A stretch of DNA of 45,803 nt, from positions 1 through 45,803 of the forward strand of contig JAHBMJ010000531.1 in the NCBI GenBank assembly GCA_018398765.1, given 5' to 3'. This DNA is from Chromera velia. Its lineage: Eukaryota. A program made the translations under genes and the position numbers. This document shows positions 5,151-45,641 of this stretch, piece by piece; within the stretch, counting starts at the first letter, position 1, and the number at the start of each line of letters is the position of its first letter. The notes under the pieces are model-generated. The model was given only the letters and a program-made list of their open reading frames with translations, was not told the origin of the DNA and ran no database searches.

Positions 5151-5290
5151 ATGAATGTCTTTTTGTTATTGTTCGTGTTGGACATTTTTCTTCCAGTCTC
5201 ATCTGATGTTTCATTTTTTCTTTCGTTACGAGCACGGAGCTCACAACGACCACTGCGGGGGGCGACAACTTCTGTTTGTCCGAGGGAATG
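5151..5290 (+). other. Putative bipartite plastid-targeting presequence (signal peptide plus transit peptide)
   Basis: MNVFLLLFVLDIFLPVSS is a hydrophobic signal-like segment. It is followed by DVSFFLSLRARSSQRPLRGATTSV, which is Phe-containing, S/T/R-rich and almost free of acidic residues, the typical layout in algae with complex red plastids. Confidence 0.55.
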
Positions 5291-44200: not shown

Positions 44201-45641
44201 GCCTGACTTTGTGTGTGCCTACATGCATGCAGGGGAACAAGCCGATCAGGAAAGCAGGGTTCCGTTTCCTGTCGATGGTTGCTGATGCCAAGGCAGAGGC
44301 GATGGCCAAAAAGGCGGACGACGAAGCCGTGAGGTACGGAAGGGCCCAGACGGGAGAGCAGCTCTACCTGGATGACGGAGAGGACGACATCGAAGTCGAA
44401 GACGAAGACAAGGACCTTTGGAGCCAGTCAGTAGTAATCAAGATTTTTTTTTTTTTTTTTTTGAAAAGGACCTTTGGAGCCAGTCAGTAGAGTAATCAAG
44501 AAGGAAGGAGAAAGGAGGGGCGATCGAGTACGGGCGTGCATGCGTTTCGTTTGGGGCCCTCTTGCTTCTTTCTTTTTCTCTGCACCTCTGATCCTTGCAC
44601 ATCGATCCTTCATTCGTCGTTGGATGGACAATTTCAACCACTGAGCTCGGCCTTCTGGAGGCATGCGATGCGTATGAAATGAGAAATTGAGTTTACGCAT
44701 CACTGAATTGACGTACGTCGGCATGATGCACTCAATCAATGAATCGATCAATCACTGCACGTGCTTCCCTTCCTGCAGGATCCGGGAGAATCAGATCTCC
44801 TCAACTGAGGATGAGGAGAAGGAGAAGGAAATGAAAGACCACCAAAAGAGATCTGGTGGGTGGGTCGTGACTGACTGACTGAGCTTGTAAGAGGGAAACA
44901 GGAAGGGGGGAGAGGGGAGGGGAGTTTTGGATTGAATTGTAAAAGAGACAGGAGAGAGGGAAGTGGTAATTTTCATTGGGGTTGCAACGGGGAGTTTTCT
45001 TTGTCTCGGGACGATGTGCCGACCTGCATATGGAACGAAAATTCTCTGCTGGGCTTTTTTGATTTTTTTTTTTTTTAATTTCTTTTTTAACACAACTTGC
45101 CCTTTTGTCTTCTTCTCTGCCTGCGCTTTTCTCCTTTTGTGTGCGTATGGACTGAGTGGCCGCCTGCAGGTATCGACTTCAGACTCTTCGATGATGTGGA
45201 GGAAGAGGCCGAGAGAGATCAGGCCTTTGAAGCAATGTCTGTCTGTCTGTCTGTCTGTGTCTGTCTGTCGGCTTTTGAGTCTTTCTTCTTTTGGGCTTTG
45301 GGTCTCTGTCTCTGTCTGTCTCTCTGGATTTTATCCTTTTTTGTGTTGGGCGGCGAACTCCCTCTCCTCCATTTGTCGTCGTCGATCTCCTCTTCTTTTT
45401 CTTTCTCTCTCTTCTGCTTCGTCGTCTTCTTCTTCTGATCTCCCAACTTGGGTCTTTTTCGCCTTTACTTCCGTCTGTTTGGGTTGGAGGTTGTTTCTGC
45501 CTTGTATCGATCTACCTTTCAAATTGTGTGCCCTTTTATGTTTTTGCTTTCCTTCTCGGTGACTCTGCAGAAGAATGGCCAGCGCTTCCGATGAGATGAT
45601 AGAGTACGAGGCCGTCGCATCCGCAGACGATTGGATGCCTG
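5151..45641 (+). CDS. Giant (more than 4,900 aa, 3'-partial) putatively plastid-targeted protein with a C-proximal three-domain plastid-type ribosomal protein S1 (bS1c) module; 71 exons in window
   Basis: Manually spliced exons: 5151(alt ATG 5097)-5554, 5863-5920, 6223-6267, 6766-6855, 7308-7423, 7820-7950, 8419-8531, 8974-9072, 9539-9676, 9972-10055, 10301-10412, 10720-10734, 11146-11178, 11493-11537, 12041-12096, 12457-12649, 12865-13224, 13706-13905, 14552-14716, 15234-16859, 17224-17287, 17831-17860, 18259-18291, 18640-18702, 19271-19373, 19864-19949, 20283-20369, 20678-20716, 21158-22867, 23273-23495, 23830-23900, 24136-24175, 24511-24593, 24805-25025, 25285-25383, 25968-26024, 26353-26558, 26915-26987, 27293-27451, 27665-27959, 28228-28308, 28668-28700, 29107-29156, 29505-29581, 29960-30096, 30374-30540, 30849-31049, 31351-31533, 32015-32180, 32473-32635, 32950-33067, 33419-33484, 33787-33918, 34321-34556, 34890-34989, 35306-36798, 37161-37230, 37655-37789, 38006-38428, 38833-39810, 40075-40434, 40900-41102, 41450-42017, 42375-42431, 42692-42934, 43404-43484, 43919-43963, 44233-44426, 44779-44855, 45170-45236, 45571-45641. 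All introns are GT-AG, phases match at every junction, the sum is about 14,800 nt with no stop, and the last exon ends at a donor (GTAGGT), so the gene continues beyond the window. Confidence 0.8.
11814..11913. repeat. (GT)n microsatellite, intronic
   Basis: About 100 bp of near-perfect TG dinucleotides in intron 14. Confidence 0.95.
13950..14058. repeat. (TTTC)n microsatellite, intronic
   Basis: Imperfect TTTC array in intron 18. Confidence 0.9.
14291..14457. repeat. 54-bp minisatellite, three tandem copies, intronic
   Basis: Unit CTTGACTGTCCTTCCATTGCTCTACCTTTCCGTTC(C/G)C(T/G)TATCCAAATGCTGCGC at 14291, 14345 and 14399, plus a partial CTTGA. Confidence 0.95.
14795..14845 (+). repeat. Intronic duplicate of the 3' end of exon 19, with inactivated donor
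   Basis: 14795-14840 matches 14672-14717 with 2 mismatches. CAG|GTAGGG in the original is CAG|GGAGGG in the copy. Confidence 0.9.
15234..16859 (+). CDS. Exon 20 of the giant S1-module gene (1,626 nt; acidic, E/D-rich region)
   Basis: Core of ORF 15174..16910. Acceptor CCTGCAG ends at 15233 and donor GTTAGT starts at 16860. Strong coding bias. Confidence 0.85.
19757..19867 (+). repeat. Tandem duplication (58 and 48 bp units) of the 3' splice-site region before exon 26
   Basis: GGTCCCCCTCTAGCTATCCCTGTCTGATGATATGAT...GTATGCA occurs at 19757 and 19815, giving two TATGCAG|GTCC acceptors. Confidence 0.9.
21158..22867 (+). CDS. Exon 29 of the giant S1-module gene (1,710 nt; very acidic low-complexity tract)
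   Basis: Core of ORF 21169..22959. Acceptor TTGCAG ends at 21157 and donor GTGAGT starts at 22868. Contains EDDEEEWGDDDFEEENDESDESEAES-type runs. Confidence 0.85.
25450..25743. other. Assembly gap (N run) inside intron 35
   Basis: 294 N bases flanked by poly-C on both sides. Confidence 1.
26576..26625. repeat. (GTCA)n tetranucleotide repeat near the start of intron 37
   Basis: Near-perfect GTCA array shortly after the GTCAGT donor at 26559. Confidence 0.9.
35306..36798 (+). CDS. Exon 56 of the giant S1-module gene (1,493 nt; predicted alpha-helical)
   Basis: Core of ORF 35300..36802. Acceptor ATGCAG ends at 35305 and donor GTGAGT starts at 36799. Confidence 0.85.
38833..39810 (+). CDS. Exon 60 of the giant S1-module gene (978 nt; coiled-coil-like)
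   Basis: Core of ORF 38839..39834. Acceptor TGTAG ends at 38832 and donor GTCGGT starts at 39811. Heptad-like K/E/L/A-rich segments. Confidence 0.85.
40411..42760 (+). CDS. rps1: Plastid/cyanobacterial-type 30S ribosomal protein S1 module (three S1/OB-fold domains) within the giant protein, exons 61-65
   Basis: Spliced translation FSYRDFIS...FGSGAMVRGTVIG...ILVDIGLKIPATLSPEEV (domain 1), VQLTLRNLQMWRGWERLAAAQQADHVVSGWITKASSGGVYISVLGIEAFCPISQV...VKVSELSLKTKRVIVSMRRA (domain 2), IRRGDLINGVVVAHERWGLFVTMG...VLPVGAKIKAILTDYDPVLGRVVLSTRELERNPGEMLRNP (domain 3). These are colinear with cyanobacterial/chloroplast S1 motifs as I recall them (FTLEDF, LIDIGAK, LTLSIRRIEYMRAWERV, GRISLSTKQLEPEPG.M). Recognised from memory, not by search. 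Confidence 0.85.
44410..44501 (+). repeat. Direct duplication of the exon 68 end and donor, separated by a poly-T tract
   Basis: AAGGACCTTTGGAGCCAGTCAGTAG(AG)TAATCAAGA at 44410-44443 and again at about 44466-44501, with a T run between. Confidence 0.9.

What the first reader, a model, noticed from the sequence alone, without database searches (positions are those of the whole stretch)
5151..45641. A plastid-type ribosomal protein S1 embedded in a single protein of more than 4,900 aa
Seen: 71 exons splice phase-consistently into one ORF of about 14,800 nt with no stop, running from a signal/transit-like leader to a full three-domain bS1c module at about aa 4390-4700 and beyond. Established: cyanobacterial and chloroplast S1 proteins are roughly 300-450 aa. 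Inference: this is either a hugely extended plastid ribosomal subunit or translation scaffold, or a nucleus-encoded polyprotein that is imported and cleaved, by analogy with the S1-domain PSRP-7/EF-Ts (PETs) polyprotein of Chlamydomonas and plants. Either would be an unusual plastid gene-expression system. The roughly 4,350 aa N-terminal part contains no domain I recognise.
Basis: partly seen in the sequence, partly recalled or inferred. Interest (0 to 1): 0.92.

Follow-up and report, generated by a model that had tools for sequence, protein, structure and literature searches.

The report
Giant plastid ribosomal protein S1
In the alga Chromera velia, a 70-71-exon gene encodes a protein of about 4,900 or more amino acids that ends in a chloroplast-type ribosomal protein S1, over ten times the usual size, and it likely adds a huge protein arm to the plastid ribosome.

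Summary
My model has 70 exons plus one weak 30-nt exon: 14,800 nt, 4,933 aa, no stop, open at the window end. Single RNA-type contigs of 14.5-16.2 kb match its 3' half exon by exon; the 5' half is supported only by their length and the public model. The protein is Chromera velia Cvel_18080 (public model 4,840 aa), the only plastid RPS1 in a 2019 supplement, tagged 'weird'. That model lacks the hydrophobic leader found here. Residues ~4,384-4,704 are a three-domain cyanobacterial/plastid S1, grouping with Vitrella and apicomplexan orthologues of 785-1,523 aa. The likely Toxoplasma orthologue is apicoplast-localised and fitness-conferring. A ~90-aa island 1,500 aa upstream is shared with Vitrella's extension, so the giant likely grew from an ancestral extension. 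No EF-Ts, repeat units or other known domain was found, so the polyprotein analogy is unsupported, though cleavage is untested. Best reading: an intact giant bS1c whose acidic helical extension forms a scaffold on the 30S subunit (0.55). New variant of a known kind.

The parts
5151..45641 (+). Giant bS1c gene (Cvel_18080), 70-71 exons, 14,770-14,800 nt of CDS in the window, 3' end beyond the window
   Evidence: model; RNA contigs, 3' half; public 4,840-aa model, 99.3% identical
5151..5339 (+). Likely bipartite leader missing from the public model: hydrophobic stretch aa 3-21, Phe-Phe, then an Arg/Ser-rich segment. An in-frame ATG at 5097 could add 18 aa.
   Evidence: Most hydrophobic 19-aa window of the protein, 1.98 against 1.29 for the next; public model starts at Met64; ATG positions. 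No signal-peptide predictor was run.
6223..6267 (+). Frame-neutral 45-nt exon in my model, absent from the public model
   Evidence: not checked against RNA
10720..10734 (+). Frame-neutral 15-nt micro-exon in my model, absent from the public model
   Evidence: not checked against RNA
17831..17860 (+). Optional frame-neutral 30-nt exon (the 71st), weak coding score
   Evidence: Good splice sites in the sequence; not listed by the hidden-exon scan; absent from the public model
15234..16859 (+). 1,626-nt exon, acidic, no known domain
21158..22867 (+). 1,710-nt exon with the most acidic tracts (net charge -40 and -35 per 100 aa), no known domain
25450..25743 (.). Assembly gap (294 N) inside the intron between exons 25285-25383 and 25968-26024; the frame is kept across it
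30502..31389 (+). Conserved island (model aa ~2,780-2,870; three exons) homologous to the N-terminal extension of Vitrella bS1c (aa 339-431) and weakly to Rhytidocystis (aa 6-86)
   Evidence: Pairwise phmmer E 5.5e-8; BLAST 37.7 bits, best local shuffle 28.9; Vitrella+Rhytidocystis profile finds it at E 5.9e-5; coordinates
35306..36798 (+). 1,493-nt exon, predicted all-helical at low confidence, no homologue found
   Evidence: RNA; pLDDT 41; no hits
40075..40389 (+). Basic Gly/Arg-rich segment just before the S1 module, a candidate RNA contact (inferred)
40390..42781 (+). bS1c module: N-terminal helix, OB domains D1-D3 and the cyanobacterial/plastid-type C-terminal segment (STRELERNPGEMLRNP plus helix); exons 40075-40434 (end), 40900-41102, 41450-42017, 42375-42431, 42692-42934 (start)
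   Evidence: NCBIfam PRK07400 positions 25-307 of 318, E 5e-33; spinach bS1c 5x8p residues 49-320, E 1e-27; alignment; tree
42782..45641 (+). Acidic C-terminal tail, at least 230 aa, running out of the window
   Evidence: RNA joints 43484/43919, 43960/44230, 44854/45169; 1,107-1,166 nt of contig left beyond 45641

Best explanation
This gene encodes a cyanobacterial-type ribosomal protein S1 module at the end of a protein of at least 4,900 aa, and it is likely the plastid bS1c of Chromera velia, likely kept as one chain whose acidic helical extension would form a large scaffold on the small ribosomal subunit. (2) A signal peptide and transit peptide take the protein through the ER into the plastid (inferred from the leader and from the Toxoplasma orthologue). 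(3) The helix before D1, D1 itself and the C-terminal segment dock on uS2c at the mRNA exit, and D2-D3 bind 5' UTRs, as described for spinach bS1c (inferred by homology). (4) The ~4,300-aa extension grew by accretion around an older chromerid/apicomplexan extension (the shared island is shown; accretion is inferred). Being acidic (pI 4.8, net charge about -314), it more likely binds proteins than rRNA and acts as a solvent-side arm that holds or guides mRNA and its factors, as the protein arm of the Chlamydomonas chlororibosome is proposed to do (inferred, untested).
For: One ORF and single long RNA-type contigs. Of 11 exonic differences between the RNA contigs and the window, 6 are silent, 8 are at third positions and the 5 replacements are conservative; 22% silent is expected by chance, P about 0.02, and 10 of the 11 lie upstream of the S1 module. 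Best family is cyanobacterial S1; best structure is chloroplast S1. The five chromerid/apicomplexan modules form a clade at 100/100 inside the cyanobacteria+plastid clade at 100/100. Fussy et al. 2019 list Cvel_18080 as the only plastid RPS1 of C. velia (PMC6668581 supplement). Orthologues have the module starting at aa 292 (Rhytidocystis, probably 5'-incomplete), 430 (Cardiosporidium), 628 (Vitrella) and 1,067 (Toxoplasma), against 8-92 in the four cyanobacterial/algal S1s compared. TGME49_286620, matched to P0024/P0160 by its 1,523-aa length and name, is apicoplast with probability 1, CRISPR score -4.31, 9-20 peptides (PMC7670262 supplements). Shared island. Precedent for extension-built arms: PMC13481248, PMC13684679.
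Against: No protein-level evidence for size, location or ribosome binding in Chromera. The module scores 114 bits against the 460 cutoff of PRK07400 (an algal bS1c, P0142, also misses it at 339), and sits on the longest end branch of the tree, 1.93. Forcing it among non-cyanobacterial bacteria is not rejected (p-AU 0.068). Published predictors found no plastid signal, but on the public model, which lacks my leader. Over 95% of the extension has no detected homologue or fold, so the scaffold role is an analogy. The island was not found in Toxoplasma or Cardiosporidium. Import of a ~550-kDa chain through four membranes has no precedent that I know of (recalled).
Confidence: 0.55

Rival explanations
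1. Cleaved precursor: the giant is imported whole or in part and then cut, releasing a normal or moderately extended bS1c plus several separate plastid proteins, as with the PSRP7/EF-Ts polyprotein.
For: PSRP7 is produced as part of a polyprotein with EF-Ts domains (PMC13684679), and dinoflagellate chlorophyll-binding proteins are made as polyproteins (PMC11014865). Very acidic tracts near aa 1,000-1,200, 1,700-1,800 and 1,900-2,000 could be linkers. The size is extreme for a ribosomal subunit.
Against: No EF-Ts or any other known domain. No internal repeats by self-BLAST, so no repeated unit or spacer. The island 1,500 aa upstream belongs to the S1 extension in Vitrella, where it lies about 200 aa from the module.
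Confidence: 0.22
2. Off-ribosome RNA hub: the bS1c module has been reused as the mRNA-binding head of a large plastid transcript-processing or nucleoid scaffold that visits the ribosome only transiently.
For: The module is the most divergent of its clade, and D1, the ribosome anchor, is not detected by Pfam or on its own. The extension is about 14 times the module's length.
Against: The helix before D1 and the C-terminal plastid-type segment, which wrap uS2c in spinach (PMC5694952), are kept. No other plastid RPS1 is listed. No catalytic domain was found.
Confidence: 0.13
3. Neutral bloat: a working bS1c drags a largely dispensable extension that grew by exon gain and low-complexity expansion.
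For: Extension length varies about 15-fold among orthologues with little shared sequence. Size divergence of apicomplexan organellar ribosomal proteins is already noted (PMC4042851).
Against: Silent and conservative changes dominate in the extension. Most 100-aa windows have the hydrophobic and aromatic content of folded helical protein. An island is kept between Chromera and Vitrella.
Confidence: 0.07
4. Two or more adjacent genes, with a boundary in the 5' half, joined by my model and the public one.
For: Junctions between 5151 and about 25,400 were not seen in RNA. There is a 294-N gap. A contig can join overlapping transcripts (tool caveat).
Against: Three contigs extend upstream by the length the model needs plus 135-247 nt. 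No stop or UTR-like exon is needed. Introns are uniformly 211-646 nt once the optional exon is counted. The independent public model joins the same exons.
Confidence: 0.03

Closest known systems
Chloroplast/cyanobacterial bS1c (spinach 5x8p, Chlamydomonas 9tvu; NCBIfam PRK07400)
   Same: Three OB domains with flanking segments and the C-terminal 'STxxLExxPGxMxRNP' segment; same clade.
   Different: 370-436 aa in the solved examples, against at least 4,933 aa here; about 4,380 aa precede the module; long branch, below the family cutoff.
Chromerid/apicomplexan plastid S1 (Vitrella CEM12083, 1,064 aa; Toxoplasma S1 protein, 1,523 aa; Cardiosporidium KAF8822146, 843 aa; Rhytidocystis, 785 aa)
   Same: One clade at 100/100; module at the C-terminal end after a long N-terminal extension; a ~90-aa island shared with Vitrella and weakly Rhytidocystis.
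   Different: The Chromera extension is 4 to 15 times longer; the rest of it matches none of them.
Chlamydomonas chlororibosome SSU arm (uS2c/uS3c/uS4c/uS5c extensions with PSRP3, 7, 8)
   Same: Ribosomal-protein extensions build a solvent-side domain around the mRNA channels; this is the working analogy.
   Different: That arm is built from several, mostly plastid-encoded proteins with extensions of hundreds of residues and a normal-sized bS1c. No homology was detected; only bS1c of 9tvu was hit.
PSRP7/EF-Ts (PETs) polyprotein
   Same: Nucleus-encoded, plastid, S1 domains within a longer precursor.
   Different: No EF-Ts domain here, and the module is bS1c itself rather than PSRP7.

Membership tests
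bS1c (cyanobacterial/plastid S1) | Three S1/OB domains (PMC5694952) | tested here: met
   One stretch covers PRK07400 positions 25-307 of 318 and spinach bS1c 49-320. Pfam finds only two stretches; D1 is divergent. The Vitrella orthologue folds with three confident beta domains that match bS1 structures; the Chromera module itself was not folded.
bS1c (cyanobacterial/plastid S1) | N- and C-terminal segments that wrap uS2c | tested here: met
   By sequence only: the FSY/FTY helix before D1 aligns across orthologues, and STRELERNPGEMLRNP aligns with spinach STKKLEPTPGDMIRNP.
bS1c (cyanobacterial/plastid S1) | Descent from the cyanobacterial/plastid lineage | tested here: met
   Clade support 100/100 in a 45-row tree. 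The AU test for Chromera alone did not reject a place among other bacteria (p 0.068). No Rrp5/Spt6/Tex rows were in the tree.
bS1c (cyanobacterial/plastid S1) | Curated score cutoff of PRK07400 (460 bits) | tested here: not met
   114 bits. The four orthologues score 136-189 and an algal bS1c 339, so the cutoff excludes all 6 proteins scanned.
bS1c (cyanobacterial/plastid S1) | Usual length of about 300-450 aa | tested here: not met
   At least 4,933 aa. No other relative of 2,662-8,470 aa among 5,500 candidates.
bS1c (cyanobacterial/plastid S1) | Plastid location | tested here: inconclusive
   Leader by hydropathy and composition; likely Toxoplasma orthologue in the apicoplast; predictors negative on the leaderless public model.
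bS1c (cyanobacterial/plastid S1) | Binds the 30S subunit and mRNA 5' UTRs | not testable with these tools
   Needs ribosome purification or cryo-EM.
PETs (PSRP7/EF-Ts) polyprotein | EF-Ts domains in the same chain | tested here: not met
   No EF-Ts hit in Pfam, NCBIfam or PDB for the 4,840-aa protein; the last part beyond the window is unseen.
PETs (PSRP7/EF-Ts) polyprotein | Proteolytic release of mature parts | not testable with these tools
   Needs westerns or N-terminomics.
Tandem plastid polyproteins (LHC/Rubisco type) | Repeated units with spacer peptides (recalled) | tested here: not met
   Self-BLAST at E 1 shows only self-diagonal matches.
Rrp5 / Spt6 / Tex S1 proteins | Many S1 repeats with TPRs, or Tex/Spt6 core domains (recalled) | tested here: not met
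   No S1_RRP5, Spt6 or Tex hit for P0006 at E 0.05. Rrp5 matched the main S1 exon at only 5.6e-7 and is absent from the full-length hits.

The most novel reading that the evidence does not exclude
Chromera's plastid ribosome carries an uncleaved S1 of over 0.55 MDa, to my recollection larger than any described ribosomal protein and heavier than all other 30S proteins together. It would form a giant single-chain arm that stands in for plastid ribosomal proteins Chromera lacks (L13, L23, L29, S16 are listed for Vitrella but not Chromera) or couples translation to transcript processing. Apicoplast ribosomes would carry a smaller, fitness-critical version of the same lineage-specific appendage.
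Probability: 0.35. Interest if true: 0.88.

Novelty: new variant of a known kind. Interest (0 to 1): 0.66.

Why it matters
Plastid ribosomes of red-derived complex plastids are structurally little known. An S1 of about 5,000 aa predicts a conspicuous appendage that cryo-ET of Chromera could test directly. It would be a second, independent route (one nuclear gene) to the kind of arm just found in Chlamydomonas. It also raises the question of how so large a chain crosses four membranes. The extended S1 is shared with apicomplexans, and the likely Toxoplasma orthologue is apicoplast-localised and strongly fitness-conferring, so the extension is a candidate parasite-specific ribosome feature. The corrected N-terminus would explain why published predictors failed on this 'weird' RPS1.

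Tried and rejected
No whole genome is held, so I could not search for a second rps1 myself; I rely on the published table, which also lists an alpha-proteobacterial-type RPS1 (Cvel_2864) as cytosolic. The DP model had false micro-exons and was corrected by hand and by RNA offsets. A 27-nt candidate exon at 34216-34242 is excluded by the exact 1,910-nt RNA length. Homologue searches with the extension found nothing: exon 35306-36796 against 871-2,485-aa proteins (weak evidence), ESM Atlas for that exon and for the Vitrella extension, the island profile against PDB (best E 0.13), the island exon against phage records. A metagenome scan with the S1 exon found 89 pattern matches and 0 confirmed. 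Pfam on 19 exons gave only S1 above its cutoff; the pPIWI_RE_Z match (20 bits, cutoff 25) is rejected. The single-sequence fold of exon 35306-36796 had pLDDT 41 and was not searched. In the Vitrella model the island had pLDDT 36-46. The run listing had no holder on record as RNA; the contigs are spliced, but their kind is the tool's guess. The search for TGME49_211670 used a recalled ID that proved to be a different, nuclear protein. Three look-ups of earlier scan findings returned nothing. Main-text searches found no paper that describes the size of this protein; Cvel_18080 had 0 main-text hits. Two Chromera plastid-genome papers were not held; they and unseen supplements may bear on novelty. 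No complex prediction was run, since only a stand-in uS2 was available. For the tree I used 45 rows: 5 chromerid/apicomplexan, 13 algal/cyanobacterial and 27 bacterial (mostly from 111 eligible hits, plus P0003), leaving out near-duplicates and fragments.
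Full report
1. Is it there? The window is intron-rich eukaryotic DNA of about 50% GC with one 294-N gap. A splice/coding DP followed by hand curation gave these + strand exons: 5151-5554, 5863-5920, 6223-6267, 6766-6855, 7308-7423, 7820-7950, 8419-8531, 8974-9072, 9539-9676, 9972-10055, 10301-10412, 10720-10734, 11146-11178, 11493-11537, 12041-12096, 12457-12649, 12865-13224, 13706-13905, 14552-14716, 15234-16859, 17224-17287, (17831-17860), 18259-18291, 18640-18702, 19271-19373, 19864-19949, 20283-20369, 20678-20716, 21158-22867, 23273-23495, 23830-23900, 24136-24175, 24511-24593, 24805-25025, 25285-25383, 25968-26024, 26353-26558, 26915-26987, 27293-27451, 27665-27959, 28228-28308, 28668-28700, 29107-29156, 29505-29581, 29960-30096, 30374-30540, 30849-31049, 31351-31533, 32015-32180, 32473-32635, 32950-33067, 33419-33484, 33787-33918, 34321-34556, 34890-34989, 35306-36798, 37161-37230, 37655-37789, 38006-38428, 38833-39810, 40075-40434, 40900-41102, 41450-42017, 42375-42431, 42692-42934, 43404-43484, 43919-43963, 44233-44426, 44779-44855, 45170-45236, 45571-45641. 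Without the bracketed exon: 70 exons, 14,770 nt, 4,923 aa, 558 kDa, pI 4.8. With it: 71 exons, 14,800 nt, 4,933 aa. There is no stop and the frame is open at the end. All 69 introns of the 70-exon model are GT..AG with G at +5, and 69 of 71 exons use their best coding frame (the scorer was trained on 8 of them).

2. One transcript? Five runs hold words of 33800-42100 at shares of 0.39-0.53; none is on record as RNA. Four were laid on 25760-45759. Single contigs of 14,482, 16,154 and 16,203 nt carry the exons in order with introns skipped. The exon lengths they require between anchors (1,910, 205, 57 nt) equal the model's, and the offsets are constant at all anchors. Five GT..AG joints appear in all four runs, from two studies. 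Upstream, the contigs hold 135, 247 and 237 nt more than the 71-exon model needs from ATG 5151, which fits a 5' UTR; downstream, 1,107-1,166 nt lie beyond the window. Contigs cannot prove a single molecule, but a stop-free spliced frame leaves no place for a gene boundary in the 3' half. The 11 exonic differences between the contigs and the window are 6 silent and 5 conservative (E/D, D/E, S/N, V/I, S/T), against 22% silent expected (P about 0.02).

3. What is it? A search of 1.84 billion representatives with the main S1 exon returned a 100%-identical 4,840-aa protein first, then proteins of 996 and 843 aa. Source labels name them Chromera velia Cvel_18080, Vitrella brassicaformis (cluster member 1,064 aa) and Cardiosporidium; Toxoplasma (1,523 aa) and Rhytidocystis (785 aa) lie further down. 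The public model equals mine from Met64, lacks three small frame-neutral exons, and ends at the same residue, so it is also 3'-partial. On the full protein Pfam finds only S1 above cutoff. NCBIfam's best family is cyanobacterial S1, PRK07400, over 25-307 of 318 positions (E 5e-33; 114 bits, cutoff 460). PDB's best hits are spinach and Chlamydomonas bS1c (E 1e-27, 4e-23), including the C-terminal segment that the E. coli-type hits do not cover. In a 45-row tree the five chromerid/apicomplexan modules form a clade (100/100) inside cyanobacteria plus plastids (100/100). Chromera has the longest end branch, and an AU test did not reject moving it among other bacteria (p 0.068). The supplement of Fussy et al. 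2019 (PMC6668581; I saw main-text passages, supplement part 1 and searched rows) lists Cvel_18080 as the sole plastid RPS1, labels it 'RPS1_weird', and records negative targeting predictions. My model adds 63 aa (81 from ATG 5097) holding the protein's most hydrophobic stretch, Phe-Phe and an Arg/Ser-rich segment. That fits the Phe-containing bipartite signal the paper describes for Chromera. I ran no predictor. TGME49_286620, matched by length and name to the 1,523-aa Toxoplasma hit, has a signal peptide, apicoplast allocation with probability 1 and CRISPR score -4.31 (PMC7670262, supplement rows only).

4. The extension. All four orthologues have the module behind 290-1,070 aa, against under 100 in the algal and cyanobacterial S1s compared. 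One ~90-aa island of the Chromera extension matches Vitrella aa 339-431 (pairwise E 5.5e-8; 37.7 bits; none of 200 local shuffles reached it, 190 gave any hit, best 28.9), and Vitrella matches Rhytidocystis there weakly. A profile without Chromera finds the same island (E 5.9e-5). It was not found in Toxoplasma or Cardiosporidium. The island lies about 200 aa before the module in Vitrella and about 1,500 aa before it in Chromera. This ties the middle of the giant to the S1 gene and points to growth by insertion rather than fusion with unrelated genes. The rest has no repeat, no second hydrophobic segment of membrane-anchor strength, helical composition with acidic tracts, and no homologue or fold. 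No other relative of 2,662-8,470 aa was found. AlphaFold of the Vitrella orthologue gave three confident beta domains matching bS1 structures and a helical, low-to-medium-confidence extension.

5. How it likely works. In spinach, bS1c anchors on uS2c through one OB fold and its terminal extensions, with the other two folds placed for mRNA (PMC5694952, passages). Those elements are kept here, and no other plastid S1 is listed, so the module most likely does this job. In Chlamydomonas, extensions of small-subunit proteins build an arm proposed to prolong the mRNA path (PMC13481248, PMC13684679, passages). I infer a like role for the Chromera extension, as a protein-binding scaffold since it is strongly acidic, with the basic Gly/Arg segment before D1 as a possible RNA contact (0.55). 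Rivals: cleaved precursor (0.22), off-ribosome RNA hub (0.13), neutral bloat (0.07), separate genes (0.03). None of the protein-level steps is shown.

6. Novelty. The gene model is public, and the RPS1 label appears in a supplement. Size divergence of apicomplexan organellar ribosomal proteins is noted in general terms (PMC4042851, passages and section 3.4). My searches found no paper describing this protein's size or the shared extension; two relevant papers were not held, and most subscription papers are not searched. PMC4630921 and PMC11014865 were seen as passages only and added little. Verdict: a real, extreme new variant of bS1c; interest 0.66.

Noticed in passing
window 4430 to about 2523, - strand: A head-to-head gene 720 nt upstream starts with a clear signal-peptide-like leader (MLPRSLTLLFALCVELAASFS). 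Its last exon encodes a helix that recalls the LHC-like/HLIP chlorophyll-binding motif (recalled; no Pfam support), and a middle exon has a weak UBA match (E 0.0075, below cutoff). Possibly a second plastid protein on a shared promoter.
   Followed up: partly
P0156 (Vitrella orthologue) aa 1000-1060; P0108 aa ~715-780: A compact C-terminal domain (pLDDT about 80) that looks WWE-like (recalled). Rhytidocystis may have it too (E 0.018). Whether Chromera has one lies beyond the window.
   Followed up: partly
window 11146-12096: Micro-exons encode a short repeated motif, GLDKEGYDRDGYDAEGIDRKG (model aa ~482-502), with no Pfam match.
   Followed up: no
window 14291-14457, 14672-14845, 19757-19857: Intronic duplications: three 54-nt tandem copies, a 51-nt copy of an exon end with a decayed donor, and a 43-nt duplication next to an acceptor. 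They are possible raw material for exon gain.
   Followed up: partly
all introns, 5555-45570: Donors are dominated by GTCAGT-like sites (C at +3 in 39 of 69, G at +5 in 69 of 69), often running on as (GTCA)n or (GTCT)n microsatellites.
   Followed up: no
window 27322-42795: Eleven exonic differences are at full depth in the three runs of study P1; the six sites that the P2 run covers match the window. This suggests a different strain or allele.
   Followed up: yes
PMC6668581 supplement, sheet 1: Plastid L13, L23, L29 and S16 are listed for Vitrella but not for Chromera; no trace of them was found in the giant extension.
   Followed up: partly
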